Origin: a virus | Length of the DNA: 64,000 bases | Strand: one strand, 5' to 3' | Virus record (IMG/VR): IMGVR_UViG_3300045988_173726 | Coordinates: 1 to 64,000 of that record | Part shown: piece by piece, positions 2,950 to 60,412 of the stretch | Numbering within the stretch: position 1 is the stretch's first letter | How the letters are laid out: every line of letters starts with the position of its first letter | Notes under the pieces: generated by a model | The model's input: the letters and a program-made list of their open reading frames with translations, nothing else | What the model was told of the DNA's origin: nothing | Database searches by the model: none | Position numbers and translations under genes: made by a program

Positions 2950-2957
2950 GGTAAAGT

Positions 2958-4212: not shown

Positions 4213-4216
4213 GTTT

Positions 4217-5656
4217 ATGGGCGGGGTATTCAAGTTACGGATTGTGCTTTCTGGGCGGTTGGATTCAGAGGAGACAGTCTATAGGTTTTCTGTTTTGCAG
4301 GGGATGGGTGGGTTAGATGGCGAAATTTCGGCAGTTTATGTAAAGGAAGAAGAGCTTGAGGCATTCCTACTTGAAAATAAGAGTCGGGTGCTTGCTCTGG
4401 AAGGTATGAAAGAGAGGGCAAAGTATTTGCCTGTATTTCCAGAGAAGGTGAAGTCAAAGACGGATAGTAGCTGTGTAAAGAGCGGTAAGTCGCAGTTAGT
4501 ATCCTGTGCAAAAGAAGATGGTGTGTATCGGGTAGGGTTTTTTAATAGGCGCGGTGAGTTTCTATCGGAATACGGGGATGGTGTGTTAAGTCGTCTGTTG
4601 GGCGATGTATTTTGTGGGAAAGCGATTCTGCTCAAGAGTGAGTTGATTGATAGTTCAGTGTATGAGCTGTTGTCTGGGATGTCCGACAAGATGAGCGAGG
4701 TACTTAACGACTTATCGCGTGGTAAACTAACAGGTGGCGACCTGTCGGAGTCCTCGATTAACGGTATTTTCGGGGCTAGTCCTACTGTTAAGTCCGAAGG
4801 TCTTAAGGGGGTCGGAAACGGAGTAAATATCTACTCAAAGTATGCTTCCAGTGTTTCGGTGGAAGCAAGTGAGATTCAAGCTACAGGAACAGTGATATTA
4901 GATATGTCAAAGTGTAGTTTGCTTTCAGAGTTTAGCTTATATGATGAATGTGACGATGATGACCTTCCAGAAACTTGCCTAGATAAGCTAACTTTGATTT
5001 TTCCGAGTGGGGTAGGGAATTTAAGAGGAGACTCGTTTACGGTTAGAGCAGAGGAGCTTTGTATCCAGAATTTAGAGGTTCTGGGGTCTTTTAACGAGGT
5101 TGCGCTTTATGACGCAGAGCTTTCGGGTGTAAACGAGATAACGGCAGAGTACATTGTTATTGACGGCTGTAGTGGGATTGATAAATTAACTATTTCAGCT
5201 CCGTGGTACAGCAAAAATCTTGGAGATATAACATTGTGCGATTTGCCTACGCTTTCGGAGCTTACGGTGAACAGATTTCAAGTTGCGGTTAATGCTAAGA
5301 CAGTGTTAATTATTGAGGACTGCCAGAAACTACGCAAGGTTTATTTGAATTGTGTTGCAACGAATCTTTCTTGTGCGCTTGATTTAGCGAGGTTTGGCGG
5401 GGATACGGAAGAGGGAGGCAGATTGTTTTCTCAAGCGGACACAAGTATTAGGGAGTTAAGTGTCGAGTGTAGCTGGTTTTCCTGTAGTGAGCGCATGGTT
5501 GACATTACACGGGAGTTTCCAGATTTAGAGAAGCTGTGTTTAACAGGGAACCTAGAGATAAATCAATCAGATTTTATATTAGTTGTTCCGAGAGGCTGTA
5601 CGGTAGATTGTAGTGACCGTAGGCTTCGGTCTAAGGTAGTGTCGCGACAGGAATAA
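4217..5656 (+). CDS. Array paralog 3 (N-module + LTGxD core + LRR)
   Basis: 479-aa ORF. Motifs: KLTGGDLS, GVNIYSKYASSVSV, VILDMSKCSLLSEFSL, FPDLEKLCLTG...VVPRGCTVDC. Confidence 0.85.
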   Translation: MGGVFKLRIVLSGRLDSEETVYRFSVLQGMGGLDGEISAVYVKEEELEAFLLENKSRVLALEGMKERAKYLPVFPEKVKSKTDSSCVKSGKSQLVSCAKEDGVYRVGFFNRRGEFLSEYGDGVLSRLLGDVFCGKAILLKSELIDSSVYELLSGMSDKMSEVLNDLSRGKLTGGDLSESSINGIFGASPTVKSEGLKGVGNGVNIYSKYASSVSVEASEIQATGTVILDMSKCSLLSEFSLYDECDDDDLPETCLDKLTLIFPSGVGNLRGDSFTVRAEELCIQNLEVLGSFNEVALYDAELSGVNEITAEYIVIDGCSGIDKLTISAPWYSKNLGDITLCDLPTLSELTVNRFQVAVNAKTVLIIEDCQKLRKVYLNCVATNLSCALDLARFGGDTEEGGRLFSQADTSIRELSVECSWFSCSERMVDITREFPDLEKLCLTGNLEINQSDFILVVPRGCTVDCSDRRLRSKVVSRQE

Positions 5657-5679
5657 GTTTATTTTATGAGGGGGCAGAG

Positions 5680-7146
5680 ATGAAGCATAAGTTTGACACA
5701 TTGTCAGAGGCTTGGTATGCGGTAGCTTTAACTGGGTATTACTGCGAGAGCGGGGATATAGCTTCTCACTATGTATTTACAGTTCTTAAGGTATATGGGA
5801 GTTTTTCAGAGCTTGATAAGGTAGATGTAGAGGGTTTTAGCGTTTTAGAGCGGATTTTCGTCAAGAAAGATAGGCTTAAAAGGTTTTTAACAAGCGGGCA
5901 TGGGGCGATTTTAGGTGCAGTTAAGGAGCATAGTACTCCTGTAAGTGTAGAAGGTATCAACTATGTAGACAAGCTAGCAGAGTATAGCAAAGACGGAACT
6001 GTTATCAAGAGCGGTGTCATGATTCAAGTTCTTACGATTAAGAAGTCTGGGGCTATCGTTTATCTAAACGAGTTAGGCGAGGTAGCGGAGACTGGAGATA
6101 AGGAGTATTTGGTAGATTGTCTCTTAAACAGTAGGGTAGTCTCACTTTATTGTCGTTCTGGTCGCCCTTTGGAATTTGAAAGGAGAGTTGCATCTGTTTT
6201 TGACCGTATCTTATCTAGCTATTCTGACTATGTTCTAAGGAATGCTCGTGATAGTTTTCTTCGTTCAGATTGTTCAAAGACAGATGTTCGTATCGGGAGT
6301 GATTTAGTGCTGGAAGTAACGGCTTCTGGTCTTAGCGGTAACGGTTGCGGGGTGAACAAGTACGGAGACTGGGTAAGTACTGTGATTGTAAGCACGGATG
6401 ATTTGCATGCTACTAATAATTCCGTTTTAGATATGGAAGATTGTGTGCATTTATCTAGGTTTGAATTAGACTGTGGAAGTGCAAATGCTTTTCCGCATTT
6501 ATCAATTATATTTCCAAAGGGCATATCAAAGTTAAGTGTAGATAGATTTTGGATTAACACAGGGAAGCTACACCTATTAAATCTTCCGAAGAATATTTCT
6601 TATGGGGATGTTTCTATAACTGGTGCAAGGATAGAGGGTCATACTGGTGAGTTTATTACGAATAGGCTTAGTTTGCGTGGGATAAGCGGGTTAAGCGCTG
6701 TGTCTTTGCATCAGCTAAGAAGAGACAGGGATGCAGAGACAGAGATTAGCGGTTGCAGTGATTTAAGGCGGATTAGTCTGTATTTTGATTTGGACGAAAG
6801 GGGTTATAGATATTTTTCTCTTAAGATAGCTGGGTGTGTGGAGTTAGAGGAGCTTCTTATAGAGATAAACAAACAAGAGCCATTGGAACTAGCTGTATTC
6901 TGTGGCGCTCATTTACTTAGTATGGCTGGAACTCCGAAGTTAAGTAGCCTAACGATACGGTGCGACGCAGGATTTATCTTTAGTCCGATAGAGGGTTGGG
7001 AGTTCTTAGACTTTTCAAGGTGTTTTCCGAGTCTTAGAGAGTTTTGTTTAATCGGGGAGTTTAGTGGTGAAAGTGCTGGCGGTAAGATTATAGTGCCAAG
7101 AGGCTGTAAGGTAAGCGGATGGGGGTTAGAGATAGAGGAGGCATAA
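5680..7146 (+). CDS. Array paralog 4
   Basis: 488-aa ORF. Motifs: LRSDCS, GVNKYGDWVSTVIV, SVLDMEDCVHLSRFEL, EISGCSDLRRISL, FPSLREFCLIG...IVPRGCKVSG. Confidence 0.85.
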   Translation: MKHKFDTLSEAWYAVALTGYYCESGDIASHYVFTVLKVYGSFSELDKVDVEGFSVLERIFVKKDRLKRFLTSGHGAILGAVKEHSTPVSVEGINYVDKLAEYSKDGTVIKSGVMIQVLTIKKSGAIVYLNELGEVAETGDKEYLVDCLLNSRVVSLYCRSGRPLEFERRVASVFDRILSSYSDYVLRNARDSFLRSDCSKTDVRIGSDLVLEVTASGLSGNGCGVNKYGDWVSTVIVSTDDLHATNNSVLDMEDCVHLSRFELDCGSANAFPHLSIIFPKGISKLSVDRFWINTGKLHLLNLPKNISYGDVSITGARIEGHTGEFITNRLSLRGISGLSAVSLHQLRRDRDAETEISGCSDLRRISLYFDLDERGYRYFSLKIAGCVELEELLIEINKQEPLELAVFCGAHLLSMAGTPKLSSLTIRCDAGFIFSPIEGWEFLDFSRCFPSLREFCLIGEFSGESAGGKIIVPRGCKVSGWGLEIEEA

Positions 7147-8559
7147 GTGGATAGGTGCTATGTTCTGTCTGGTATTCTTTTAGACGATAACGGGGAAGAG
7201 GTAGGAATTCGGTATCAAGAGCTTGATTCTTCTATAACGGTGATATGTAAGAAAGATGAGGTCAATGACTTTCTTTTAAGTCATGAGGTCTACGGCGGCG
7301 GGGATTTTTGTGTAGCGCGGGTGGATGCCACGACAGGAGAGGTAATAAAGAAGGGTCATATTAAGTTAATTAGCATTGTTTGGTTTCGTGATACTGCTAA
7401 AGGTGTGAATCTAAGGTTTCGACTTCGTTACCTAGACAGTAGTGGAGAGTATAAAGACAAAATTTTATCGCTTGATGAATGCTTAGATACCCTGCATCGC
7501 CTAGAGGGGGAAGGGGCTACAGTGGTAGACGAATACCCGAAAAGTGATAGCCTTAAGCCTTATCTATTGTTTATGTGCGGGATTCTTTATAGCGAGGCAT
7601 ATCAACTTGAGCGGAGCAGGGCGCGGCTTACGAGAGAGGATTGCTCTAAGGTTTCCGTTTATTATGACGAAGATACAAGGCGCTTAGGGTTACAAGCTAT
7701 CGGTATGGTGGGACAGTCAAACGGAGTAAATAGATATTCTGCGTTTGTAAATCGGATAGAGGTGAGTAGTGATGATTTAGCGCGGGCTTTGGTAAAGGTG
7801 GTAGATTTAAGTCGTTGCGATAGGCTTAGAGAACTTAGCTATAGTGCTTCGTTGAATCATGTAAGTTCCGATAATTCGATGGTTATGGTATTTCCGAAGT
7901 GGGCAAGTAAGGTGATGGACGAGCGGAGTCTTGTTATCGAGAAATTAACGATTGGCAAAGGTCGGTTTGAGTTTCGTAATTTCCCCTCTGGAGCGGTATT
8001 TAAGAAGCTTACAGTAGTCAGCGGAGCAGAGTTAGCGGGAGACATTGGTTGCTTTAGGGCAGAGACAGCGGTTTTAGGGGCTGTTTCAAAATACGGCACG
8101 CTAAGAGGTCTTAAACACTTGTTTATCCGAGTTCCGTTATCTAATGATACAAACATTTTTGTATGTGACACAGATTCAGAGGAGATAAGTATAGAGTATG
8201 AAGCTGGGTTTTATAAAAACACTCTTTCGATTTTGAACTGTAAAGTGCTTAAAAAGGTAACGATAGTGAATCATGAGGTTATCGACTTAGTTAGGGTGTT
8301 GAAAGGTATAAAGAACTGTGAGGCGCTTACAGAGCTTACAATCGTGGCAGAATATTACAAGTCGCGCGTTGAAATGGGAGCAGGAAAGCTATTGCATGTT
8401 CTTGGATGTGACGGATACAAGAACCTAAAGGTGTTACGAATAATAAAGAAAGGGAATAAGGAAGATGAGATGCAACCAAACGCCATGTTTCAAGTACCGA
8501 AAGGTTGCGTTGTTATGTGTAACAGTAGTGAAGTGGGACGCTTCATCGCATACAGGTAA
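7147..8559 (+). CDS. Array paralog 5
   Basis: 470-aa ORF whose GTG start abuts the upstream stop. Motifs: RLTREDCS, GVNRYSAFVNRIEV, VKVVDLSRCDRLRELSY, ILNCKVLKKVTI, QVPKGCVVMC. Confidence 0.85.
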   Translation: MDRCYVLSGILLDDNGEEVGIRYQELDSSITVICKKDEVNDFLLSHEVYGGGDFCVARVDATTGEVIKKGHIKLISIVWFRDTAKGVNLRFRLRYLDSSGEYKDKILSLDECLDTLHRLEGEGATVVDEYPKSDSLKPYLLFMCGILYSEAYQLERSRARLTREDCSKVSVYYDEDTRRLGLQAIGMVGQSNGVNRYSAFVNRIEVSSDDLARALVKVVDLSRCDRLRELSYSASLNHVSSDNSMVMVFPKWASKVMDERSLVIEKLTIGKGRFEFRNFPSGAVFKKLTVVSGAELAGDIGCFRAETAVLGAVSKYGTLRGLKHLFIRVPLSNDTNIFVCDTDSEEISIEYEAGFYKNTLSILNCKVLKKVTIVNHEVIDLVRVLKGIKNCEALTELTIVAEYYKSRVEMGAGKLLHVLGCDGYKNLKVLRIIKKGNKEDEMQPNAMFQVPKGCVVMCNSSEVGRFIAYR

Positions 8560-8570
8560 GAGGAGTTTAT

Positions 8571-10061
8571 ATGGATTATAATAGAGACCCTATGGATTTT
8601 AGCCGTCATGAAGATAAAGCCTATTTTATGATAGGGAATCTTGTATCTATTGGAGAGGTTGTAGGCAAGAGGTTTATAGGGTTGCCGTGATTTGCAGAAA
8701 AGATTTGTCTTGGTGGAGTTTTGCCAGAGACAGTGGATGTGAAGATGGAAGATATGGACGATTTCTGTAATCAGCACATCACTTACGGGGTGTTCGGGAA
8801 TAAGGAGCTAAATGAAGTTTCCTTTGAGAGTAGGGAGGTAATAGATGAGGTCAGTAATCGTCTCTTGCAGTTAGACTTGCACGAGTATCCGCATAAGCTT
8901 GAGAGTGAGAGGATTGTTTACGAGATTCACTATATTGATGCGGTAGGCTTGTATCGGTCAAGGATGTTAAATAGCTTAGAGGCAGTTTTAGATACACTAC
9001 AGGGGCTAAACGCGGTAATGTTTGAGAGTTTTCCACAGAGCAAGAAGTTTCTCCCGTATTTAGAGTTTAATCGAAGGGGGCATCTACAGGAGATTAAGAA
9101 TGGAAGGGCTGTAAGCGGGGATTGTTCGGGGGTAAGTCCTTATATGGACAAGAAGGCAGGGAAGATTAAGCTTTTCGCTTATGGGTTTCTGGGTAATTCT
9201 ACAAATGGTGTCTGTCGGTTTTCAAAGTTTATCAGTAAGGCTAGGGTAGAGGATGATGGCGCACGGGTAAGTGATGTTCGTGTTTTAGATTTTAGTCAGT
9301 GTAGTCGTCTTTCTAGCATAGTTTACAATCACCTAATAGACGAGCAGAAGTATTATTCAGAGAATATGTCGATAGTGTTTCCGAAGTTTGTAGTTAAGAG
9401 TGATAGGTGTTTGTGCGCAGAAGAGTTTAATATAAGCGCCAGAAAGTTTCAGTTTGTAAATTTTTCAGAGAATGTAATATTTGAGCGACTTAGAATATTG
9501 GGTGGTGTAGAGATTGTAGGCGCAGATGACTTTTTCACGGTAGCGCATGGGTTTATCGGGGACGGGAAGGAGACTGTTACAGGGCTTAAAGAGTTAAAGG
9601 TAGGCAATGCGCTAGATAGGACTGTTGGTAGAGACTCGTCTTTGCATATTATAGACACAGATTCCGAGGAGATAACACTTGTATTATACCGTGTCGCTTT
9701 TCCAGAAGAGGATAGGAAGTATTTTGAGATAAAGAACTGTAAGGAGCTTAGAAAGCTTACCGTAATTTGCCCCTTTGGGCTTGATTTAGGCGTGATATTG
9801 CGTGGAATAGAGGGTTGTGACGCACTTACGGAGATTGTAATTAGTGCAAATGTTTTTCGTGGAGCATCCGTAAGTACGGCGAACAGAAAACGGTTCGGGT
9901 TTGCGGAGGAAATCGGATATAAAAACTTAAAACGGCTTGAGCTTAAAGGTCTAGGCTGGGAAGAGTTGGATAGGCAGTTTAATGTATCTGTACCTAATGG
10001 TTGCGAAGTGGTATGTAACAATAAGAAGTTAGCGAGTCGAATTATAAAAGAAAAGGAGTAA
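8571..10061 (+). pseudogene. Array paralog 6 with a single in-frame TGA at 8688-8690
   Basis: ATG 8571 (RBS AGAGGAG) opens MDYNRDPMDFSRHEDKAYFMIGNLVSIGEVVGKRFIGLP*. The same frame then continues FAEKICLGGVLPETVDVKMEDMDDF... into the 8721-10061 ORF. The interrupted part aligns to the N-module of paralog 5. Downstream motifs: SGDCS, GVCRFSKF, VRVLDFSQCSRLSSI, IKNCKELRKLTV, SVPNGCEVVC. Confidence 0.6.
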
Positions 10062-10066
10062 GGGAT

Positions 10067-11761
10067 ATGTCTGACGCAAAGCGGGTTTATATGGTAGTCG
10101 GAGAGCTGGTAGGAGAGGACGATAAGCACTTAGGGGTGTGCGTTGACGAGATGATTTTAACGCAGAGGAAGCTTGAGTTTTCAGAGAGGAAAGACCTGTC
10201 AGACGAAGAGTTTCGGAAGTTCTTGATAGAGCATGGAAGTGATACGCTTGATTTTTCGGATGGTGCGCTTCGGGTGCGGCTTTCGGAGCTTCCGAAGGTG
10301 ATGCTTGACTCTAGGGGCTATTATCGTTGCAGGAAGCGCGGTGTTCAGCAGTTTATATGGGATTCTGCGGGGATTTTATACTACATAAATGACTCGGGTG
10401 ACTTCTGCACTGTCTCAATTAAGGTCGGGGAGTCGATGCGCAAGGTGTTAAACGCGCCCTGTCGGTTTGTAGAGGGCTTTCCGCGTGTAGGCAAGTTTAT
10501 TAAGACTTTACGGGAAAGCAAGAAGCAGTCAAATGCGAAAGTGGGGGAGAGAAGTCGCAGTAAGTTAACGGGAAGCGATTGTTCGTTAAAAGAGCAGAGA
10601 GTAGTAGACGGAAAATTAGAGTTAGTTGTTAGCGGGTTTAGTGAGTCCCGTAATGGTGTTTGCAAGGTAGATAGTGCTGTTACGATGGTCGATGTTCATT
10701 GGGGAGACATCGTGTACGGTAATGTGCGGGTGCTTGATTTAAGCGCCTGCGCGTGGCTCCATGAGGTAAAGGTGCAGGCTAACGTAACGGGTAGAGACAG
10801 TAAGGTAACGGAGTCGTTTGCTTTGGTTTTGCCGAAAGTAGAGACAGAGGTTTCTGTTTCTTTAGCCGCGAATACGAAGCGTGCTGACTTTAGGCTAGCC
10901 GAGTCTGCGAGGTTTAAGTCCTTGGAGTTATCGAAATGCGAGGTACTAGGGCTTGACGGGGAGAGAAGCATATGGTATGGAAGCTTTTTACACTGCACAG
11001 GTCTTAAGAGTCTTAGATTAGGCAGTGTTACGGGGGGTAATGGAATTTATCTAAATGACTGTGACACAGAAGAGGTAACGCTTAAGGGTTGGAGTGGAGT
11101 AAAGGAGATACGAAACTGCACGAAGCTAAAGAGAGCAGTAATCATGTGCGAGTCGATAGATGTCTCTGATTTGCTTAATCTTGTAAAGGATTGCAGGAGT
11201 TTAGAGCGAGTATACTTGCACATTGGGTATTTAATAGGAGAGGGAGAGTTTTATAATAGGTATAAGGACGCCTTGGCTATTCTAAACTTTGGTTCTTCCA
11301 AGTTAAAGAGTGTTCGGATAGACATTAGAGACGGAATTAGGCTTAAGGATTCACTTTGTGTGATGTATGACAGCAAGGTAGAGTTTAGTAGTAACAGTAA
11401 AGAGTTGGAATCTCATTTTAAGGCAGTGAATTTAAGCACTGAAATGAGAGATTTCGCTACACTCTTAGCGTATTTTCCGCTTAGAGTTATAGATGATAAG
11501 CTAAATTGTTGTATAGAGGTACAGCGCGGGGATTGGATAAGGCTACAAGAGGCAGAAGGTAACAGCGTTTATAGTAGGGAGACTCTTATATTACCAGACA
11601 AAATCGAGCGGGTAGTAGGGTTGTCAGAGTTTTACGGAAGTAAGGATAGCGGTGTAGCCTTAAAGAAGCTTGTGGTTAGGCATCCTGTTGAGATAAGCAA
11701 GACAGTGTATGAGAGTATCGGAGAAATCGAGGGGAAAGAGAATTTAAGAATCGTGGGATAA
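10067..11761 (+). CDS. Array paralog 7 with an extra C-terminal extension
   Basis: 564-aa ORF. Motifs: KLTGSDCS, GVCKVDSAVTMVDV, VRVLDLSACAWLHEVKV, IRNCTKLKRAVI. The last ~120 aa (LILPDKIERVVGLSEFYGSKDSG...) are absent from the siblings. Confidence 0.85.
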   Translation: MSDAKRVYMVVGELVGEDDKHLGVCVDEMILTQRKLEFSERKDLSDEEFRKFLIEHGSDTLDFSDGALRVRLSELPKVMLDSRGYYRCRKRGVQQFIWDSAGILYYINDSGDFCTVSIKVGESMRKVLNAPCRFVEGFPRVGKFIKTLRESKKQSNAKVGERSRSKLTGSDCSLKEQRVVDGKLELVVSGFSESRNGVCKVDSAVTMVDVHWGDIVYGNVRVLDLSACAWLHEVKVQANVTGRDSKVTESFALVLPKVETEVSVSLAANTKRADFRLAESARFKSLELSKCEVLGLDGERSIWYGSFLHCTGLKSLRLGSVTGGNGIYLNDCDTEEVTLKGWSGVKEIRNCTKLKRAVIMCESIDVSDLLNLVKDCRSLERVYLHIGYLIGEGEFYNRYKDALAILNFGSSKLKSVRIDIRDGIRLKDSLCVMYDSKVEFSSNSKELESHFKAVNLSTEMRDFATLLAYFPLRVIDDKLNCCIEVQRGDWIRLQEAEGNSVYSRETLILPDKIERVVGLSEFYGSKDSGVALKKLVVRHPVEISKTVYESIGEIEGKENLRIVG

Positions 11762-11812
11762 GGCTGTTTCTTTAGCAAAGATATAGACAGTGAGTAGAGC
11801 AATGTGTTAAAA

Positions 11813-11865
11813 TAGAGCCGATGTGGAGAGGTAGCAAGTTTCCTGTCGGCTCTAGTCGTTTATTT
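11813..11865 (+). terminator. Hairpin plus T-rich tract ending the first array operon
   Basis: TAGAGCCGA (11813-11821) pairs with TCGGCTCTA (11846-11854) around a 24-nt loop, followed by GTCGTTTATTT. Confidence 0.45.
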
Positions 11866-12034
11866 GGGGGTCGTGGAGACAGGGGCAGTCGGGCTTCTCA
11901 AAAAGCGCAGAAAAATTTCGGTGAAAATTAGGGTTAATACCAGTTGGTAAAAACTAGTAAGACCTATAGCAAAATTTTTAAGCACCTAGTGGTAGCTTTT
12001 GTACTTTAGAAACAAAAATTAGGCTCGTGAAGGG
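11855..12034 (+). repeat. Conserved intergenic module, member A
   Basis: GTCGTTTATTTGGGGGTCGTGG, then GCGCAGAAAAATTTCGG, AAAATTAGGG, an A/T-rich middle, and TTGTAC-N17-GGCTCGTG. It shares the exact 13-mer TTTGGGGGTCGTG (11863-11875) with 28628-28640 and further blocks with members B, C and D. Confidence 0.6.
11999..12029 (+). promoter_or_regulatory. TTGTAC-N17-GGCTCGTG box (twin of 52463-52493)
   Basis: TTGTAC (11999-12004), a 17-nt A-rich spacer, then GGCTCGTG (12022-12029). 26 of 31 positions are identical to the box at 52463-52493, with identical spacing. It ends 5 nt before the 12035 ORF. Confidence 0.4.
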
Positions 12035-13021
12035 TTGGTAGGTCGGAGGCTATTAAATAGTGCTAGAATAAGAATCGGGTTGGGCAGGGGGGAAGAAGTG
12101 ATAGAGGACAAGTCTTTTAAGCAGAGTGTCGAGTATGCCCGAGGTAAGTTTACGGGGATGGATTGCGGAGTTTACGATGAGAGGGGAACGAGCCTTTCTG
12201 TAATCGGTCTTGAGCGGTCGGTAACAGGAGTTTATGTGCTTCCGAGTGCCGTGACGGGAGTTTTTCTTAACAGGGAGGCTATAGCGAAGAGTGGTATTAA
12301 GGTGCTGTCGCTTGAGAATTGTAGTAATCTTCGTAAGTTTGAGATACAAAACCCAACAAATCCTATGGTAGAGAGTCCGCTTTGGGAGCTGACGCTTGTT
12401 TTACCAAAGGAAGCGCCATGTCTAAGTAAGGTGGCAGTTAACTTAATATGTCATAAGTTCCGTTTAATTGGGGAATGCAATGGGATTGATTTGTCGCTCT
12501 ATTTGTGCAGTGAGTTAGAAATAAACAAGTCTGTTATGGACAATGCAAAGTCTCTATACTTCTCAAGTTGTAGCGGCATCGCGCGTATTTGTTTACCTGA
12601 AACTAACATAGCTGATTCGGTTTATCTGGTAAACACTGCTACTGAGCATCTTTCCTGTCATTTACGCAGTAATGGGCTAGGGATTACAAACTGTTGTAAG
12701 CTAAAGGTTATGTCAGTGTGGTTTGAGCGACTTGACGCACACTTGTTTTCGGGCTATACGCGCCGTAGAATTATTAGCTTAGAGGAGATTCATATAAAGG
12801 TTTCGAGGTTGTTCTTTTCAGAGATATGCCTTAGTCATGAGCGAGTAATAGATTTCTCATATGTTTCAAGAGTTCTTAAAACGATTAGTTTTACGACAGC
12901 GGATGGGTTTCGGGCAAGCAACTTCGATTCTGATAAGAGGTATAAGCTAATCGTGCCTAGTAAAGCGGAGTTTACAATGAGCAATGAGCTAGAGCCTTAT
13001 TTTGAGGTGGTTAGAAAGTAG
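12035..13021 (+). CDS. Array paralog 8, naturally lacking the N-terminal module (start codon uncertain)
   Basis: 328-aa ORF. KFTGMDC is already at about residue 38, followed by GVYVLPSAVTGVFL, IKVLSLENCSNLRKFEI and C-terminal LIVPSKAEFTMSNELEPYFEVVRK. The TTG start is taken from the track and there is no clear RBS. Confidence 0.7.
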   Translation: MVGRRLLNSARIRIGLGRGEEVIEDKSFKQSVEYARGKFTGMDCGVYDERGTSLSVIGLERSVTGVYVLPSAVTGVFLNREAIAKSGIKVLSLENCSNLRKFEIQNPTNPMVESPLWELTLVLPKEAPCLSKVAVNLICHKFRLIGECNGIDLSLYLCSELEINKSVMDNAKSLYFSSCSGIARICLPETNIADSVYLVNTATEHLSCHLRSNGLGITNCCKLKVMSVWFERLDAHLFSGYTRRRIISLEEIHIKVSRLFFSEICLSHERVIDFSYVSRVLKTISFTTADGFRASNFDSDKRYKLIVPSKAEFTMSNELEPYFEVVRK

Positions 13022-13023
13022 GG
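12986..13023 (+). repeat. 38-nt near-identical direct repeat at paralog 3' ends (partner 14455-14492)
   Basis: GAGCTAGAGCCTTATTTTGAGGTGGTTAGAAAGTAGGG versus GAGCTAGAGCGGTATTTTGAGGTGGTTAGAAAGTAGGG is 36/38 identical, while the gene bodies are strongly diverged. Confidence 0.8.
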
Positions 13024-13026
13024 GAC

Positions 13027-14490
13027 ATGAAGGCACATGAGTTTATCGCGTGTCCGCGTGAGCGGTATAAGCAAGGAGATACTGACAGAGACGGCTTTAG
13101 TTATATAAATGGTGTAGTCAGTAACGAGCAGGGGGAGACTCGGTATTGGGTTACTGAGTGCTATCGTGGCGGGCTACAAAGCGGGAGTGTAGCGCCTATC
13201 TCGTACATGTTTAGTGTAGATGAGCTTTCAGCGTATGTTATAGAGGTTGGTTCGCGGATGGTTGACTATAGTTTTCGCGCGAATTTCGAGCCTTCTAAGG
13301 ACGGTTATTACCTTCGTGATTATACTGATATTAAAGGCAGGATTCCTGTTTATGAGGAGCGCGGTGGTGAGCTTATACTAAAGAAAGAGGGTAGCCCTCG
13401 TAGAGTAACGTATGGTGATAGAAAGACATTTCTTTGCATTGACTCATTAGGTGAGATTAAGGAAGTGCCGAAAGTGGAGTTGAACAAGATTGGTGGCGAG
13501 TTTAACTCTTGTAAATTGAAATCAGCTAGTCAATATGACATACTGTGGGAGTTAGATTTACTTGCCTTTCGTGACAGCGATGAGTTTAAGCTTGCAGAGG
13601 CTAGAAACAAACTAACTGGGGCAGACTGCGCAGAGTATTACGATGAGCAATCTGATATTGCTGGTGGTCTTTCTGTGGTTGGCTTTGGCAGGAGTGCCAC
13701 AGGAGTTTGCCGTGTATCTGGGGCTACAACTAGAGTTAATTGTAGCGATGAGAGTTTTAGCAAGAGTGGCGTTGAGGTATTGTCACTGGAGGATTGCAAG
13801 TATATTAAATCTTTTGCTATTAAGCATAAGGATGGGGTTAGATTGAAACGGCTTTCAGTGATATTTCCAAATAATCCAATCAAATTTCCTTATTTTTTAA
13901 TAATTAGATTTAATTATATCGAGGAAGTGAAGTTAATTGGTGAGTTACCTAACCTTAGCTTAGATATGTCAAATAATAGGCTTAACATCAGTGACTATAT
14001 TATGCAGAATGCGCACAGTTTAAGATTTAACGGTTGCAGTGGGATTCCAAAGGTAACCTGTAGTCCGTTTGTTCTCAAGCTTTGCGACACAGATACCGAG
14101 TATGTATCTTGTTCTTTACGACATACTAAAGGAAGCCCGTTTAGTTATGCTTATATTAAGGGTTGTAATTCGTTAAGGTATGTAAGAATTGACTACAGCA
14201 GGTTTTCCATTAGAGAATTTAATGCCTCTATCCAAGATTGTCCTTGTTTAGAGGAGTTATGTGTCACAATGAAAGAGATTTATCTGCACTATCATGAAAC
14301 AGATAGTCGCGTGATTGACTTGCTTGCTTCATTTCCGAAGCTTAAGAAGATAATTTTTTCAGCGCCTTGGCTCTTTAATGTGATAGATGAGCGTTACGCA
14401 CTGGGTACGTGGAAGTTAATTGTGCCAACCGAGGCAGAGGTTATGCTTAGTGGGGAGCTAGAGCGGTATTTTGAGGTGGTTAGAAAGTAG
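13027..14490 (+). CDS. Array paralog 9
   Basis: 487-aa ORF. Motifs: KLTGADC, GVCRVSGATTRVNC, VEVLSLEDCKYIKSFAI, IKGCNSLRYVRI, LIVPTEAEVMLSGELERYFEVVRK. Confidence 0.85.
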   Translation: MKAHEFIACPRERYKQGDTDRDGFSYINGVVSNEQGETRYWVTECYRGGLQSGSVAPISYMFSVDELSAYVIEVGSRMVDYSFRANFEPSKDGYYLRDYTDIKGRIPVYEERGGELILKKEGSPRRVTYGDRKTFLCIDSLGEIKEVPKVELNKIGGEFNSCKLKSASQYDILWELDLLAFRDSDEFKLAEARNKLTGADCAEYYDEQSDIAGGLSVVGFGRSATGVCRVSGATTRVNCSDESFSKSGVEVLSLEDCKYIKSFAIKHKDGVRLKRLSVIFPNNPIKFPYFLIIRFNYIEEVKLIGELPNLSLDMSNNRLNISDYIMQNAHSLRFNGCSGIPKVTCSPFVLKLCDTDTEYVSCSLRHTKGSPFSYAYIKGCNSLRYVRIDYSRFSIREFNASIQDCPCLEELCVTMKEIYLHYHETDSRVIDLLASFPKLKKIIFSAPWLFNVIDERYALGTWKLIVPTEAEVMLSGELERYFEVVRK

Positions 14491-14492
14491 GG
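14455..14492 (+). repeat. Partner of the 38-nt repeat at 12986-13023
   Basis: See 12986-13023. Confidence 0.8.
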
Positions 14493-14498
14493 AACGGT

Positions 14499-15950
14499 AT
14501 GCCAAAGTTTATCGAGGGGAAAGCGCCGCTAGTGATTAGGAAAAAGCGGGTTGGAAGAGAGGCGGCTGGAGTTTACTTTGTCATAAAGGGTATCGTCGTA
14601 GACTGTGCAGGGGAGATAGTAGAATATCTTGTGACTCGGTTTCGGATAGACAATACTAATAGGTTAGCCGAGACAGAGAGTAGGACTGACGAATACAGTG
14701 AAGAAGAGTTTATAACGCTGGTTTCAGAGTTCGGGCATTTGTTTGCGGATTACAGGCTTGATGGAAATGAATATAAGCTTCGGTATACAGAGTTTCCAGT
14801 TTATCAGATGTTTGATGGTGCAGTAAGAGAATTGAAGTTGTTCAAATATAGTAAAGAGAGATTCTTAGCTTGTCTTGCAGATGACGAAATACTATTTGTA
14901 GATAGCATGGGTGAACTTATGCGCGGAAGTGTGTCGACTCTTTTAAGTGTCAGCATTTCACCTTCGGAAATGTTGGTTGGTAGCCTTGGAAAAAGGGTTG
15001 ACCGTAGGTATTTTACATTTGTTCGCGATTATAGGAAAAGCGATGCTTATATAAAGGAGTCAGCTAGGCGTAGGATGGTTGGTGATAGCTGTTGTTGTCT
15101 CATTCCGAGCAGTGAGCAGTTTTCGTTGTCGTATGTTGCAAGGCTAAAGGGAGTTAGTCATACAGGGGTATGCAGTGTTCCGTCTCTTGCGACCGTGTTC
15201 TACTGTTTTGGCAATGATTTAGATGAGAGCGGGGTTAAAGTAATTTCGTTTGAGAAATGCCTAGGGCTACGGAATATTAATATGAAATGCGGCAATGATT
15301 TTAGGGATAGAATAGCCGTAGTTTTGCCAAGCAGGAGTTTGTTTGGCGCTCCAAAAGTTTATATTGGGGCGTGTTGCAAAGAGTTTAGACTGGATGGATA
15401 TTGTAAACGGATTGAGCTATCTCTAACTAGGGTAGAGCATTTTGAGATAGACCCGAAGAGTTTATCTAACGCAAAGCAAGTGTATTTTGCGGTATGCAGG
15501 GGATTAAAGTCTTTGACCTTTAATAGAATAAGTGGCGTAATGCTGTACGATACAGACACAGAAGAAATTTTCTGTCGTGTTCCACTCGGAGTAAACGGGT
15601 TTCATAGAGGGATTAGGATAGAGAAATGTCTAGCGTTAAAACTCGTGAGGTTAAGTTCGGATAAGTTTAATCCAAGTGTGGTTGGAGGAATTTTTAAGGA
15701 GTGTGATAACTTGGAGGAGCTTTCTATCGAGGCTGACAGTTTGGTTCGTGACAGTTTGGTTATAGACCTTTGTAGCATCTCAAAGAAGTTGAAGCGATTT
15801 AGCCTAACACTTACTTCTAGGTTTAGCCGCGATAAAGCTATTTTAGGTGGCGCAGAGGGATGCGAGATTATTGCGCCTAGGGGAGCGGAGGTTAAGTTAG
15901 AGGGGAACGGAGTAGATTTAAGTAAGTATTTTACGGTGACATATAAGTGA
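14499..15950 (+). CDS. Array paralog 10
   Basis: 483-aa ORF. Motifs: MVGDSCCC, GVCSVPSLATVFYC, VKVISFEKCLGLRNINM, IEKCLALKLVRL, IIAPRGAEVKLEGNGVDLSKYFTVTYK. Confidence 0.85.
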   Translation: MPKFIEGKAPLVIRKKRVGREAAGVYFVIKGIVVDCAGEIVEYLVTRFRIDNTNRLAETESRTDEYSEEEFITLVSEFGHLFADYRLDGNEYKLRYTEFPVYQMFDGAVRELKLFKYSKERFLACLADDEILFVDSMGELMRGSVSTLLSVSISPSEMLVGSLGKRVDRRYFTFVRDYRKSDAYIKESARRRMVGDSCCCLIPSSEQFSLSYVARLKGVSHTGVCSVPSLATVFYCFGNDLDESGVKVISFEKCLGLRNINMKCGNDFRDRIAVVLPSRSLFGAPKVYIGACCKEFRLDGYCKRIELSLTRVEHFEIDPKSLSNAKQVYFAVCRGLKSLTFNRISGVMLYDTDTEEIFCRVPLGVNGFHRGIRIEKCLALKLVRLSSDKFNPSVVGGIFKECDNLEELSIEADSLVRDSLVIDLCSISKKLKRFSLTLTSRFSRDKAILGGAEGCEIIAPRGAEVKLEGNGVDLSKYFTVTYK

Positions 15951-19707: not shown

Positions 19708-20550
19708 ATGATGTATGTGGTTGCAGTAGTTAAGAATGATGCTGATGAGGCGGTCGCGTATCGTGTTCTTGACATTGAGAAGCGTGCTTGTAAGGCGGTG
19801 TCTAAGGAGGCGGTGATTCGTGCTTCGATGCAGAATCCGAAGGCGTTTATGAATGTGGCGGCAGAGGGCAAAGAGCTTGTCGGCACAAACGGTTCGCTTT
19901 CACGGTATGCTGTAGTGTCGATGAAGAACGAGCTTGTCAGTAAGAGTGCGCCTGTTGTGGTGCTTGCGCGTTTAGGTAACGAGGGCTTTGTGCTTTCGGA
20001 TTACGCGGGTAACATGACGAAGATTAAGAGTGACGAGGCAGTAGGTTACGCGACAAAGTTCGGCATTGCGAACGGTAAGATTGTGGAGCGTGACGGTAAG
20101 AAGCTGATTTCGGCAATTAGCGGCGAGTATCCGTTAATCGAGAAGAAGAAGGTCGAGACAGCGGCGAAGGCTAAGTTTATTGCGGTGAACGATGATGACT
20201 CGGTAGCAACGCTGGTGCAGAAGGTAAATGACTATATTGCGCATCCAGACGAGAAGCTTATCGGTAAGCTTGGAGACGAGAAGAGTGATTTGCTGTTTGC
20301 AAAGCTGATTGTGGATTTAGGCATACCTGCGGCGGCGAATGAGCCAGCAAAGGCGCTTCCGCTCTTAAAGGAGTTTTCAACGAAGTATTTTGAGCCGTTA
20401 AAGATGATTTGCAGTAAGGATAAGATTATCTATCACTCTAAGGGCTTAAAGGAGCTTTATAAGGACTTAAAGGGCGGTGCAACTGACTTGCTTGATAGAG
20501 CGATAAGGGAGCTTGCAGAGGAGCGAGTGGACATCAGAGAGACGCTTTGA
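19708..20550 (+). CDS. Protein made of two tandem copies of the recurrent N-module plus a helical tail
   Basis: RBS GGAGGAA. Module 1: MYVVAVVKNDADEAVAYRVLDIEKRACKAVSKEAVIRASMQNPKAFMNVAAEGKELVGTNGSLSRYAVV. Module 2: VVVLARLGNEGFVLSDYAGNMTKIKSDEAVGYATKFGIANGKIVERDGKKLISAISGEYPLI. It is followed by the strongest terminator in the window. Confidence 0.8.
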   Translation: MMYVVAVVKNDADEAVAYRVLDIEKRACKAVSKEAVIRASMQNPKAFMNVAAEGKELVGTNGSLSRYAVVSMKNELVSKSAPVVVLARLGNEGFVLSDYAGNMTKIKSDEAVGYATKFGIANGKIVERDGKKLISAISGEYPLIEKKKVETAAKAKFIAVNDDDSVATLVQKVNDYIAHPDEKLIGKLGDEKSDLLFAKLIVDLGIPAAANEPAKALPLLKEFSTKYFEPLKMICSKDKIIYHSKGLKELYKDLKGGATDLLDRAIRELAEERVDIRETL

Positions 20551-22074: not shown

Positions 22075-22086
22075 AGGGGGTAGGTA

Positions 22087-32196: not shown

Positions 32197-33810
32197 ATGC
32201 TTGCTATTAGAGAAGTAATTTTAGACGAGAAGTTAAATGAGGTTGCCTATGTAGTAAGTGGCACGATGCAGGAGTTTGGGGATGGAGAGTCTTGTAAAGA
32301 GACGCGGCGCGTCCTTAATGTCGATGATTTGGTTAAGAATCACAAAGATGTGACCCCGTTTGTTTCTTATGCGTCTGGAAAGCTTGAGTTTCCGATTGTT
32401 AGGGGTTCTCATTATAGGAGAGTGGTCGAGCATGTTTATGTGACGAGTCACGATGGTATTAAAGAGATAAAGGCAGAGATTAAGATTATCGGGCGGTTAA
32501 AGAAGAGGACAGGCACATTTAGTAATCCGCGACTGTCTAATCCCATAGGCTATAGGATTGAAGTTGAGGGAAAGGTAACTGATGTTGCAGGCGCAGACCT
32601 TTTTCGACTTAGCCGTTGGATGCCGATTGCGGGTGGTTTGCAAGTGATATGCGTGCAGAAAATCGGGGGATTTTATTATTCCGTGAATGGCGCGGTAGAT
32701 AATATTATCGTAGGGGACGGCGATGTGGCTTATGATAGTAACATAGTCGTAGAAGATACGGGCAGTATCGGGGAGTTCATTAAGTTTATCGCGTCACAGA
32801 ACGGAACGATTGCGGTAAAGCGTCCGTTTGATACGGGGTCGTTATCAGATAGTCTTGTTGTAGAGGGCATTTCGGAGTATGAAATCGCAGAGCCGAAGCT
32901 TGTTTGCGCTCTGGACAGAATGACTTTATCGTTAAAGACAAAGCGTTCTATTAATGTACGGTTTTCGGATGGTTGTAAAGTTTACCCGTTAAATATTAGC
33001 GGTGAGTTTACACTGGTTAAGGATGGAGAGCTTGTAGTTAGGAATATGCTTGTTATTTTCCCGAAGAAAGACGCAATCCGTGCGATTACAGAGAAGTACG
33101 GAAAGTATCTGCTGATTCAGCCTGTCAAGGGAAGTAAGCTGGTAGGCGGTGAGGTTTATAGTATTGGTATTTTCGGCATTGCGGTAACAAACGGCTTGGC
33201 TAGTTACAGTAAGATTAGACCTGTTACGGTTGCGAAGTATTGTGCGGAGAAGCATAAGGTATCCACGCAGATGACTGCTGTTAAGCTGGAGATTTGCGAG
33301 GCAAGCCCTGTTAGAAGTGCTGTGATTCCGTATGACGGTGGAAATGATGCAGAGTTGTCGCGCCTTAGAGGTGTGGGTGTCGATACGATGTCTGGAAATC
33401 TTAAAGTGACGGGCGAGGCAGAGAAGAGTGGTGTCGGAGTTCGGTTTGAGTATGAGGCAGAGAATGTATCTGTTCCCGAAGCGGTAAAGAGTGGCAGTCT
33501 TAAAGAGCTTGAGGCTCGGTATGAAGAGCTTTCAAAGCAGTATGCAGAGCTTGAGCTTACGCTTTGGCTGATTGCGCACAGTCGTTTTGCGTCTGGTAGT
33601 GCGGGTAAGTATGCCAGCTTTTATGCGCCGTCATGGGGCTTAAAGTATGTCGGGGAAGAGCGTAGTATGCACGCCTATGAGACGAACGAGGAAGGCTTTA
33701 GACTATTAATTAACGGGGAGGTTGTGACGGAGGATAGAGCAGTTTTAGCGGCTCGTAAGGGTAAAGGCAGAAAGCGTGGTAGACCGAGAAAGGACGCGGT
33801 ATTAGCTTAA
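32197..33810 (+). CDS. N-module protein, paralog of 34123-35778, with a C-terminal AT-hook (start moved to ATG 32197)
   Basis: RBS AAGGAGAAGAG directly after the dam stop. The N-terminus MLAIREVILDEKLNEVAYVVSG... is module-like. Shared blocks with the paralog include MLVIFPKKDAIRAITEKYGKYLLIQPVK versus FSVAFPKESGAKFAEYYKGVLTLTPVK. The tail is GRKRGRPRK (33766-33792). Confidence 0.75.
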   Translation: MLAIREVILDEKLNEVAYVVSGTMQEFGDGESCKETRRVLNVDDLVKNHKDVTPFVSYASGKLEFPIVRGSHYRRVVEHVYVTSHDGIKEIKAEIKIIGRLKKRTGTFSNPRLSNPIGYRIEVEGKVTDVAGADLFRLSRWMPIAGGLQVICVQKIGGFYYSVNGAVDNIIVGDGDVAYDSNIVVEDTGSIGEFIKFIASQNGTIAVKRPFDTGSLSDSLVVEGISEYEIAEPKLVCALDRMTLSLKTKRSINVRFSDGCKVYPLNISGEFTLVKDGELVVRNMLVIFPKKDAIRAITEKYGKYLLIQPVKGSKLVGGEVYSIGIFGIAVTNGLASYSKIRPVTVAKYCAEKHKVSTQMTAVKLEICEASPVRSAVIPYDGGNDAELSRLRGVGVDTMSGNLKVTGEAEKSGVGVRFEYEAENVSVPEAVKSGSLKELEARYEELSKQYAELELTLWLIAHSRFASGSAGKYASFYAPSWGLKYVGEERSMHAYETNEEGFRLLINGEVVTEDRAVLAARKGKGRKRGRPRKDAVLA

Positions 33811-60296: not shown

Positions 60297-60412
60297 TTGG
60301 TAAGTCAGTGGTTTCAAACAATATAGAAGAAAGTTGAAATAATTCTCGATTTACATGTTTTTCATTAAGGATGGTTTTGTTAGGATATGTCGTATTGTGG
60401 AGAGGAATTGAA

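What the first reader, a model, noticed from the sequence alone, without database searches (positions are those of the whole stretch)
19708..20150. One ~65-aa module recurs at the N-terminus of about 18 proteins in this window, sometimes in tandem
The pattern is a hydrophobic strand, then x-G-x-(V/L)-(V/L)-G-(Y/F)-x-V-x-D, then a short variable segment, then a helix-like stretch ending in ...(N/G)(A/G/L)..., then G.....(L/F)P.

It appears twice in 19708-20550, twice in 34123-35778 and twice in 53882-56866. It appears once in 32197-33810, 46752-48413 and 52803-53720. It also heads nearly every array paralog, for example LSGILLDDNGEEVGIRYQELDSSITVICKKDEVNDFLLSHEVYGG.

The downstream domains are unrelated: two LRR classes, an AT-hook protein and a 994-aa giant. 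The module therefore behaves like a common handle. Candidate roles are virion packaging or ejection, localisation, oligomerisation, or binding to DNA or a partner. I cannot assign it to a named family.
Basis: partly seen in the sequence, partly recalled or inferred. Interest (0 to 1): 0.7.

Follow-up and report, generated by a model that had tools for sequence, protein, structure and literature searches.

The report
Unnamed shared N-terminal domain of huge phages
The repeated pattern is real: it is half of a roughly 150-residue, two-repeat N-terminal domain with no name in any library searched, which huge phages of guts and digesters attach to many otherwise unrelated proteins, although only about six proteins in this window demonstrably or probably carry it, not eighteen.

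Summary
The pattern at 19708-20150 is real and not chance. The unit is not a free 65-aa module. It is a ~150-aa domain made of two related repeats, each strand-strand-strand-helix-strand-strand (AlphaFold2 pLDDT 93).

A profile of the two clear copies (ORFs 19708 and 53882) finds 647 protein clusters (E<=1e-3) among 1.84 billion. The domain almost always starts at residue 2-5, in proteins of 170-1336 aa. The C-termini vary: BspA-type and other LRRs, DUF2201 metallopeptidase+VWA, a Zn-ribbon-like giant, or short tails.

In 40 metagenome loci (contigs up to 496 kb) these genes mostly sit in clusters of up to six same-strand paralogs. The loci that were annotated place them among DNA-metabolism genes, as in this window.

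No match was found in Pfam, PHROGs, NCBIfam, PDB or BFVD.

Within the window:
- Two copies are certain.
- ORF 34123 is a solid remote homologue (hhalign P=7e-7).
- ORFs 32197 and 52803 are probable.
- ORF 46752 is weak.
- The eight LRR-array paralogs are unproven (P=0.065).

The "common handle" reading is supported. What the handle binds is unknown. I favour an intracellular docking role near DNA. Virion anchoring, as shown for DUF7941 in chimalliviruses, is the main rival.

The parts
19708..19920 (+). Repeat 1 of the N-terminal domain (aa 1-71) of the 280-aa protein
   Evidence: AlphaFold2 model with pLDDT 93.4: strands 2-9, 15-22, 27-32, helix 33-42, strands 50-53, 56-59. External family profile E=6e-48 over aa 1-156.
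19945..20148 (+). Repeat 2 of the N-terminal domain (aa 80-147), the better conserved half. It carries the family's G-I-A-N-G-K and I-S-x-I-x-G-x-Y motifs.
   Evidence: AF2 strands 83-88, 93-97, 103-107, helix 108-118, strands 123-128, 131-136. Conserved columns in alignment A4. Repeat 1 versus repeat 2 hhalign P=1.7e-4. Among 117 strain variants only 1 of 12 polymorphic domain positions lies in repeat 2.
20149..20550 (+). Variable C-terminal tail of the 280-aa protein (no recognised domain)
   Evidence: No Pfam, PHROG or NCBIfam match. Full-length relatives of ~275-291 aa exist in other phages.
53921..54406 (+). Two-repeat N-terminal domain of the 994-aa 'giant' (aa 14-175)
   Evidence: phmmer against ORF 19708 iE 1e-6. 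External profile E=2e-27. Most of the best external hits are full-length relatives of this protein, with a conserved Cys/His-rich stretch after the domain.
34123..34581 (+). Remote version of the two-repeat domain at the N-terminus of the 551-aa protein (aa 1-153)
   Evidence: Homologues of this protein lie next to domain-gene clusters in loci L012, L013, L014 and L021. Family N-terminus versus domain profile: hhalign prob 91.8%, P=7.3e-7, 144 collinear columns.
32197..32634 (+). Probable divergent two-repeat domain at the N-terminus of the AT-hook protein (aa 1-146)
   Evidence: hhalign versus the 34123 family P=7.4e-4, 119 collinear columns. BLASTP of the repeat-2 strand+helix against ORF 34123 E=0.013. 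Not detected directly by the main family profile (P=0.08).
52803..52997 (+). Repeat 1 (aa 1-65) of a degenerate domain in the 305-aa BspA-LRR protein. The rest of the domain (to about aa 165) is eroded.
   Evidence: hhalign versus family P=8e-4, 64 columns. Full-length collinear with the domain+LRR_5 ~304-aa subfamily, P=5e-18. Same position upstream of the giant as in L001. LRR_5 at aa 201-295.
46803..47081 (+). Possible single, weak copy (aa 18-110) in the 553-aa BspA-LRR protein
   Evidence: External profile rank 3 of 263 ORFs but E=0.14. hhalign P=0.004. Best phmmer hits are family members in register (E~1e-3 in a 412-sequence set). Not significant on its own.
1459..15086 (+). N-terminal ~150-195 aa of eight LRR-array paralogs (1459-2013, 2958-3392, 4217-4726, 5680-6270, 7147-7626, 10067-10564, 13027-13611, 14499-15086). 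The resemblance to the domain is claimed but unproven.
   Evidence: Paralogs are homologous to each other mainly through their middle and C-terminal parts. N-terminal profile versus domain family: P=0.32 and P=0.065 with a collinear 164-column alignment. AF2 pLDDT 54.6, but the element order bbb-a-bb-bbb-a-b matches the domain.

Best explanation
What it is (shown). The pattern is a genuine protein domain with no match in any library searched. It is about 150 residues long and built from two diverged repeats, each strand-strand-strand-helix-strand-strand. It forms the constant N-terminal end of a multigene family in a lineage of huge phages from guts, digesters and bioreactors. Family members keep this end and differ in the C-terminal part. 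The C-terminal parts seen are protein-binding LRR solenoids, a zincin-like peptidase plus VWA domain, a ~800-aa Cys/His-rich region, a ~400-aa domain with or without an AT-hook, or a short helical tail.

How it most likely works (inferred). The domain is a docking end that brings these different working parts to one common partner or place. Repeat 2 is the most conserved part and is probably the binding surface.

My best guess for the target is an intracellular one, tied to DNA or to the replication and modification machinery of the infected cell, rather than the virion.

Approximate sub-confidences:
- Real homologous domain used as a shared N-terminal handle: 0.85.
- Intracellular, DNA-associated target: 0.35-0.4.
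For: Domain and family:
- 647 clusters at E<=1e-3 and 283 at E<=1e-10; the match begins at residue 2-5 in nearly all of the 150 best, whose lengths span 81-1336 aa.
- Strongly conserved alignment.
- AF2 pLDDT 93.4, pTM 0.83.
- Internal repeat P=1.7e-4.

Handle behaviour:
- Variable C-termini.
- Most of the 40 loci carry two to six adjacent same-strand paralogs.
- One protein has two copies of the whole domain (P0132).

Intracellular, DNA-linked context:
- In the window the carriers sit among a PIF1/RecD-like helicase, an McrB-like AAA_5 plus McrC pair, a D12 methyltransferase, a DnaG zinc ribbon, holA, DNA polymerase I and a Toprim protein.
- The same neighbours (AAA_5, McrC, D12 methyltransferase, 34123-like gene) recur in the 221-kb bioreactor phage L014. 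ParB-HNH and AAA_5 genes occur in the 465-kb gut contig L001. A DNA polymerase lies next to the domain genes in L038 and L040.
- No Pfam-recognisable virion protein appeared among the window and locus proteins that were scanned.
- The domain is basic (median pI 8.9; +6.6 and +8.8 net charge in ORFs 34123 and 53882), while the C-terminal remainders are acidic (median pI 6.0).
- One carrier ends in an AT-hook-like GRP motif, below the Pfam cut-off.
- The order of elements b1-b2-b3-a-b4-b5 is that of an OB fold (the OB topology is from my own knowledge). The faint structural and sequence echoes are to small nucleic-acid-binding barrels: uL24 E=0.006, Spt5 KOW, EF-P, S1/CSD.
Against: - No direct evidence of DNA binding or of any partner.
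- Foldseek gives no credible match. The best PDB hit has E=0.24 and TM about 0.13, so an OB or KOW relationship is not supported.
- The uL24 hit fades with a deeper profile.
- The charge excess is modest for the canonical family (+2.5).
- Gene order in huge phages is scrambled, so neighbourhood is weak evidence.
- Only 64 kb of a ~265-kb genome is visible, and only +/-10 kb around each related locus.
- The best-documented analogue is a shared N-terminal module followed by LRR, glycosidase or carbohydrate-binding parts in chimalliviruses. That module is a virion filament component (bioRxiv 10.64898/2026.04.21.720040).
- BspA-type LRRs are typical of adhesins (NCBIfam HupY/LrrG similarity).
Confidence: 0.45

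Rival explanations
1. Virion module. The domain anchors or polymerises its carriers on the particle. This could work like DUF7941 filaments on the chimallivirus baseplate, like conserved N-terminal anchors of multi-receptor-binding-protein phages, or like a signal that loads cargo into the capsid for injection. The LRR and VWA/peptidase ends would then act in host recognition or in early take-over.
For: - Close analogy. Goslar has 10 DUF7941 proteins, three of them with the N-terminal module followed by carbohydrate-binding, glycoside hydrolase or LRR parts. gp22 and gp23 are present at ~580 and ~2140 copies per virion, and gp22 forms filaments.
- C-terminal partners here are dominated by LRR-type solenoids, with adhesin-like similarity.
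- Multi-paralog clusters with variable ends are typical of host-range genes.
- The strict N-terminal position suits an assembly signal.
Against: - Not a DUF7941 member. PF25613 is in the library and finds Goslar gp22, gp23, gp31 and gp33 at E 1e-20 to 1e-56, but none of the carriers. hhalign of DUF7941 versus the domain gives P=0.46.
- Carriers lie among replication and modification genes in the window and in divergent relatives, not among recognisable structural genes.
- A Cys/His-rich giant, an AT-hook protein and a VWA-peptidase beside an AAA_5 ATPase gene are not typical fibre proteins.
Confidence: 0.3
2. Self-association hub. The domain makes the paralogs bind each other (homo- or hetero-oligomers), or bind the AAA_5 ATPase encoded beside the domain+DUF2201/VWA gene. 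The varied C-termini would then be assembled into one multi-subunit machine.
For: - Several paralogs are always co-encoded and co-oriented.
- A ~390-aa gene family, weakly AAA_5, is the commonest non-domain neighbour (11 loci; L001).
- A two-repeat beta-rich domain could pair head to tail.
Against: - The window's phage has domain carriers but no domain+DUF2201 gene and no member of that ATPase family.
- No complex prediction could be run.
Confidence: 0.15
3. Narrow version of the observation. Only the six non-array proteins carry the domain. The resemblance at the head of the LRR-array paralogs would be a generic hairpin-plus-helix pattern, not homology.
For: - Profile-profile P=0.32 and 0.065.
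- Iterative searches never recruit them.
- No array-like relatives occur in 40 related loci beyond generic LRR similarity.
Against: - The non-significant alignment is collinear over both repeats.
- The AF2 element order matches, although at pLDDT 54.6.
- Domain+LRR is a common architecture in the family.
- The array's LRR profile hits a domain-bearing LRR protein at E=1e-4.
Confidence: 0.4

Closest known systems
DUF7941 (PF25613) module of Chimalliviridae (Goslar gp22/gp23 and eight paralogues)
   Same: A lineage-restricted module shared by about ten paralogues of a jumbo phage. It is N-terminal where other domains follow, and those include LRR/beta-helix and carbohydrate-active parts. It had no structural match when described.
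   Different: No sequence relationship: no Pfam hit and hhalign P=0.46. DUF7941 genes lie in the structural region of Goslar and are proven virion filament proteins. The present carriers lie among DNA-metabolism genes and have no proteomic data.
PF12699 'inner body' paralogue family of phiKZ-like phages, and the T4 capsid-targeting sequence of internal proteins (own knowledge for T4)
   Same: One recognisable element marks a set of different phage proteins for a common destination (capsid interior and injection).
   Different: PF12699 is not matched. The T4 signal is a short cleaved peptide, not a folded 150-aa domain. No protease site or virion evidence was found here.
Small nucleic-acid-binding beta-barrels (OB fold; KOW/SH3-like of uL24 and Spt5)
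   Same: Element order b1-b2-b3-helix-b4-b5 per repeat, tandem arrangement, basic charge, and faint profile hits to uL24 and Spt5 KOW.
   Different: No significant Foldseek match to any such structure (best E=0.24, TM<=0.19). Sequence hits are not significant with the deeper profile.
F-box/PRANC plus repeat proteins of poxviruses and giant viruses (own knowledge)
   Same: A constant small docking domain joined to variable repeat solenoids, expanded into multigene families in large viruses.
   Different: Different fold, eukaryotic ubiquitin machinery and a different position in the protein. This is an analogy of logic only.

Membership tests
The new two-repeat N-terminal domain family (defined here by the profile of 145 external sequences) | Significant match of the whole ~150-aa profile at the protein's N-terminus | tested here: met
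   ORF 19708 E=6e-48 and ORF 53882 E=2e-27. ORF 34123 is met only at profile-profile level (P=7.3e-7). ORFs 32197, 52803 and 46752 reach P=7e-4 to 4e-3. Array paralogs are not met (P=0.065).
The new two-repeat N-terminal domain family | Fold of two b-b-b-a-b-b repeats | tested here: met
   AF2 of ORF 19708 aa 1-165: pLDDT 93.4, pTM 0.83. For the array paralog 10067 the same order appears, but at pLDDT 54.6, which is inconclusive.
DUF7941 (PF25613) | Pfam model match above the gathering score | tested here: not met
   The model is in the library and scores Goslar gp22, gp23, gp31 and gp33 at 72-192 bits. No hit for window carriers or for 66 external members. hhalign P=0.46.
PF12699 (phiKZ inner-body family) | Pfam model match | tested here: not met
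   No hit. The presence of this model in the library copy was not separately verified.
OB fold | Element order b1-b2-b3-a-b4-b5 | tested here: met
   DSSP string of the model, for both repeats.
OB fold | Closed five-stranded barrel superposable on known OB domains | tested here: inconclusive
   Foldseek versus PDB lists EF-P, proteasomal ATPase OB rings and S1/CSD proteins only at E>0.5, probability <=0.15 and rmsd about 10 A. Coordinates could not be inspected.
KOW / SH3-like (uL24, Spt5) | Significant sequence-profile match | tested here: not met
   uL24 E=0.006 with the 2-sequence profile. With the 40-sequence profile it falls to Spt5 E=0.75 and no uL24 hit.
BspA-type LRR (PF13306 LRR_5), for the C-terminal parts of ORFs 46752 and 52803 | Pfam match above the gathering score | tested here: met
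   67.6 and 68.0 bits against a cut-off of 27.7.
T4-type capsid targeting signal | N-terminal element removed by the prohead protease, with the protein found in capsids | not testable with these tools
   The residues after the domain show only a loose Y-x-x-(I/V)-(E/K)-(I/L/V) preference. No proteomics is available.

The most novel reading that the evidence does not exclude
The domain is the address tag of a previously unrecognised effector-sorting system of huge phages. A folded two-repeat N-terminal signal would direct a changeable set of effectors to one destination. The effectors would be LRR binders, a VWA-peptidase, a Zn-ribbon giant and DNA-binding proteins. The destination would be either the capsid, for co-injection with the genome, or the phage's own DNA or replication compartment. 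A new fold would be doing the recognition.
Probability: 0.25. Interest if true: 0.8.

Novelty: new variant of a known kind. Interest (0 to 1): 0.6.

Why it matters
Huge phages carry hundreds of genes with no known function. This result ties a sizeable group of them together: at least 647 clusters at 50% identity, with several genes per genome. They share one constant domain that has no Pfam, PHROG, NCBIfam, PDB or BFVD counterpart.

If the partner of the domain were found, it would give a first functional foothold for all of these proteins at once. That includes LRR proteins that look like candidates for host interaction or counter-defence.

It would also add a second case, independent of DUF7941 in chimalliviruses, of jumbo phages building multigene families around a private N-terminal module. 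That would suggest a general design rule.

The high-confidence model and the profile are ready for a Pfam entry and for pull-down or structural work.

Tried and rejected
- Pairwise and iterative searches inside the window stall at two members. Iteration over the window plus 40 loci plus 149 representatives also converges without recruiting the weak copies.
- Two of the three large homology searches returned only near-identical orthologues of the same phage (97-100% identity). They gave no diversity.
- The third such search was left unused, because the same saturation was expected.
- tblastn of a typical domain against 50,697 deposited phage genomes: no match. The same for ORF 34123.
- Pattern-seeded scans of IMG/VR and of 185,579 species genomes: no relatives. 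These scans depend on two short peptide patterns, so absence is not proven.
- Foldseek against PDB and BFVD: nothing at E<=0.001. The many ASKHA (Hsp70, YgjD, PPX) hits have TM about 0.13 and are rejected. The best BFVD hit is an uncharacterised 92-aa Bacillus phage protein (E=0.015).
- The idea of a protease cleavage site after the domain found no clear motif.
- Strain polymorphism does not separate the domain from the tail in ORF 19708: 8.2 versus 8.3 polymorphic sites per 100 aa.
- A chimallin identity for the 34123 family was considered, but no evidence was obtained. PHROG 2426 has unknown function and there was no PDB sequence hit.
- Literature searches found no description of this domain.

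Full report
**Setting.** All substantial ORFs of the 64-kb window lie on the + strand, and GC skew is about +0.33 throughout. The 280-aa product of 19708-20550 occurs, 97-100% identical, on metagenome contigs of up to 272 kb. One source names it 'MAG TPA: hypothetical protein [Caudoviricetes sp.]'. The window is therefore part of an uncultured jumbo phage of about 265 kb. Recognisable genes in the window are mostly for DNA metabolism:
- PIF1/RecD-like helicase, guanylate kinase, D12 methyltransferase, DnaG zinc ribbon and Toprim.
- An AAA_5 plus McrC pair.
- A holA-like clamp-loader subunit.
- DNA polymerase I.
- A class A penicillin-binding protein is also present.

- Pairwise, only the N-termini of ORF 19708 (aa 11-159) and ORF 53882 (aa 30-185 of the stop-to-stop frame) are significantly and collinearly similar (iE 1e-6). 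Iteration stops at these two.
- I cut ten instances by hand and ran a leave-one-protein-out test. The omitted protein ranked first of 263 ORFs in four of six trials, but only through the first hairpin (iE 0.02-0.5).
- A loose hairpin pattern is about three-fold enriched over shuffles.

**The decisive evidence comes from outside the window.** A profile of the two clear N-termini (A2) was scored against 1.84 billion representative proteins.
- It found 647 proteins at E<=1e-3 and 283 at E<=1e-10.
- In nearly all of the best 150, the match covers the whole ~150-aa profile and starts at residue 2-5. Those proteins range from 81 to 1336 aa.
- The family alignment is strongly conserved. Its consensus is roughly: M..hIA.I....hGYRLLD...K.DVP....VL..G..I.NL...G.LVGTNGSIDRYP......L.GKSPLVILNQIGD.GYTV.DYKG.I.K....DVI.YAK..GIANGKVV.KDG.EFISSI.G.Y
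- A profile built from 145 of these external sequences, excluding this phage, scores ORF 19708 at 6e-48 and ORF 53882 at 2e-27.

**Anatomy.** AlphaFold2 on ORF 19708 aa 1-165, with 40 family sequences, gives pLDDT 93.4 and pTM 0.83. The model shows two repeats with the same order of elements: three strands, a helix, two strands. The two halves of the external alignment match each other in register (hhalign P=1.7e-4). Repeat 2 is the better conserved half, both across the family and among 117 strain variants. In those variants it holds 1 of the 12 polymorphic domain positions.

**Which window proteins carry it?**
- *ORFs 19708 and 53882:* certain.
- *ORF 34123:* homologues of this 551-aa protein lie beside domain-gene clusters in loci L012, L013, L014 and L021. 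The N-termini of this small family align to the domain profile over 144 collinear columns (probability 91.8%, P=7.3e-7). This is a solid remote homologue with both repeats.
- *ORF 32197 (the AT-hook protein):* it aligns to the 34123 family over 119 columns covering both repeats (P=7.4e-4). Its repeat-2 strand and helix match ORF 34123 by BLASTP (E=0.013). Probable.
- *ORF 52803:* it matches repeat 1 (P=8e-4). As a whole it is collinear with a subfamily of ~304-aa proteins that have a canonical domain followed by LRR_5 (P=5e-18). It lies directly upstream of the giant, exactly as that subfamily's member does in L001. It is probably an orthologue whose domain has eroded.
- *ORF 46752:* ranks third of 263 with the external profile but at E=0.14, and hhalign gives P=0.004. 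Weak.
- *Taken together:* after the two certain proteins, the next-ranked + strand ORFs with the independent external profile are exactly these four. In hhalign, 34123, 46752 and 52803 again rank directly after the two certain proteins, while 32197 does not. This agreement would be hard to get by chance.
- *Array paralogs 1459-15950:* eight have a full N-terminus, 8721 and 12035 are truncated, and 2958 plus 3763 look like one split gene. They are homologous to one another mainly downstream of the N-terminus. Their N-terminal profile does not significantly match the domain (P=0.32). Relaxed settings give P=0.065 with a collinear 164-column alignment. AF2 on paralog 10067 is of low confidence (pLDDT 54.6), though the order of elements is the same. 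Their LRR profile touches a domain-bearing LRR protein at E=1e-4. I class them as suggestive but unproven.

**Handle behaviour.** Pfam on 66 full-length external members finds nothing on the N-terminal domain. On the C-terminal parts it finds LRR_5 (6 members), LRR_8 (4), DUF2201_N plus DUF2201/VWA (3), DUF285, FNIP and LRR_4. Most of the best hits are full-length relatives of the 994-aa giant, with a conserved Cys/His-rich stretch after the domain.

In 40 metagenome loci, most carry two to six adjacent same-strand ORFs of 80-1037 aa, each headed by the domain. The loci come from contigs of up to 465 and 497 kb (one from a human gut metagenome), a 221-kb bioreactor contig and several others. 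One representative protein carries the whole domain twice.

The lineage is related to the window's phage. L014 repeats the window's order: AAA_5, McrC, D12 methyltransferase, domain genes, 34123-like gene, and an IS605 OrfB-type transposase gene where the window has its three-copy ORF. L038 and L040 have the polymerase next to domain genes. L001 has domain+LRR_5, domain+giant, domain+DUF2201 and an AAA_5 ATPase in a row.

**Is it known?** No family matched.
- Nothing in Pfam, PHROGs or NCBIfam.
- No PDB sequence match with the deep profile (best E=0.1).
- No Foldseek match at E<=0.001 in PDB or BFVD.
- No tblastn match in 50,697 deposited phage genomes.
- Pattern-seeded scans of IMG/VR and of one genome per 185,579 species found no relatives. 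That absence is provisional because the scans rely on short patterns.

**Closest analogue.** The closest documented analogue is DUF7941 of chimalliviruses. It is a private module present in ten Goslar proteins. In three of them it is N-terminal to carbohydrate-binding, glycosidase or LRR parts. The module polymerises into filaments on the baseplate (bioRxiv 10.64898/2026.04.21.720040). I checked that PF25613 is in the library (it finds Goslar gp22, gp23, gp31 and gp33). The present domain is unrelated to it (hhalign P=0.46).

**Mechanism.** The following is shown: a constant, folded, strictly N-terminal domain joined to interchangeable C-termini, several per genome, clustered, and lineage-restricted. 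From this I infer a docking or targeting role.

For the target, I weigh the following in favour of an intracellular, DNA-associated site:
- The conserved neighbourhood of replication and modification genes in divergent relatives.
- The basic charge of the domain against acidic remainders.
- The AT-hook-like tail of one carrier, which is below the Pfam cut-off.
- The Cys/His-rich stretch in another carrier.
- The OB-like order of elements.

All of these are weak, and Foldseek does not support an OB or KOW relationship. The virion reading is backed by the DUF7941 precedent and by the adhesin-like LRRs. It remains a serious rival. A hub with the neighbouring AAA_5 ATPase is a third option.

**Verdict.** The 'common handle' interpretation is supported and its role is unresolved. 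The domain is a new family, and probably a new fold, playing a part already known from other jumbo-phage families.

Noticed in passing
window 104-1060, 37174-38505, 60371-61744: Three near-identical copies of a ~440-aa ORF (phmmer E down to 1e-239); the first is only a 318-aa ORF, and its open frame runs back to the window's start. The DNA after two of the copies also looks alike by eye (TTTTCTAGTTACGG...). It looks like a mobile element inside the phage genome. By eye it resembles TnpB (CIENLDF motif), but Pfam gave only a weak DUF7307 hit and no OrfB_IS605. The relative L014 has a true HTH_OrfB_IS605/OrfB_IS605 gene at the matching place.
   Followed up: partly
window 21016-23142: A phage-encoded McrBC-like pair: an AAA_5 ATPase (E=2.6e-11) followed by an McrC-family protein (E=1.3e-14). 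It is conserved next to a D12 methyltransferase in the relative L014. This is an odd thing for a phage to carry, and might act against competing phages or modified DNA.
   Followed up: partly
window 25148-27988: A 946-aa class A penicillin-binding protein (Transgly E=4e-56, Transpeptidase E=1e-24) with a long charged C-terminal extension, encoded by the phage. A protein with a signal-peptide-like start (28002) and a lipoprotein-like protein (28853, LSACGS lipobox by eye) follow it.
   Followed up: partly
window 1-64000: Extreme and uniform GC skew (+0.26 to +0.38 in every 2-kb window), with every substantial gene on the + strand. Because of this, the - strand shows many long spurious ORFs (193 versus 70 stop-to-stop frames of >=60 aa).
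   Followed up: no
window 2958-3743 and 3763-4212: These two ORFs look like the N-terminal and C-terminal halves of one LRR-array paralog split by a stop or frameshift. ORF 2958 aligns to aa 9-293 of ORF 1459, and ORF 3763 aligns to the C-terminal ~120 aa of ORF 5680. ORFs 8721 and 12035 lack the N-terminal part that the other paralogs have.
   Followed up: partly
window intergenic regions before 29741, 39839, 49043, 51963 versus before 19708, 34123, 52803: Classic TTGACA-17-TAATAT-type promoters precede 29741, 39839, 49043 and 51963. Three domain-carrier genes are instead preceded, about 25-35 nt upstream, by an ATAAAT/TATAAAT-like element without a -35 box (read by eye). This may be a phage-specific promoter class. 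No statistics were run.
   Followed up: no
window 33760-33810 (C-terminus of ORF 32197): The protein ends in KGKGRKRGRPRKDAVLA, an AT-hook-like GRP motif (Pfam AT_hook E=0.0093, 16.2 bits against a cut-off of 17.4).
   Followed up: partly
L001 12776-16390; L014 8566-12079; 11 loci in all: In relatives, one domain carrier is a DUF2201_N zincin-like peptidase plus VWA protein. It sits beside a ~390-aa gene of a family that is the commonest non-domain neighbour (11 loci; weak AAA_5 match in L001, none in L014). This looks like a MoxR-VWA type pair recruited by huge phages. The window itself has no such pair.
   Followed up: partly
window 34123-35778 and loci L012, L013, L014, L021: The ~550-600-aa family of ORF 34123 has a C-terminal ~400-aa part matching only PHROG 2426 (unknown function, E=8e-6). 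It has no PDB or deposited-phage relative. It is conserved beside the domain-gene clusters.
   Followed up: partly
BFVD entry M4HNK7 (Bacillus phage vB_BceM_Bc431v3, 92 aa): This is the only structural neighbour with a high Foldseek probability (1.00; E=0.015; TM 0.56 on the target, 92 columns). It is an uncharacterised small protein that may be a single-repeat relative in a cultured phage.
   Followed up: no
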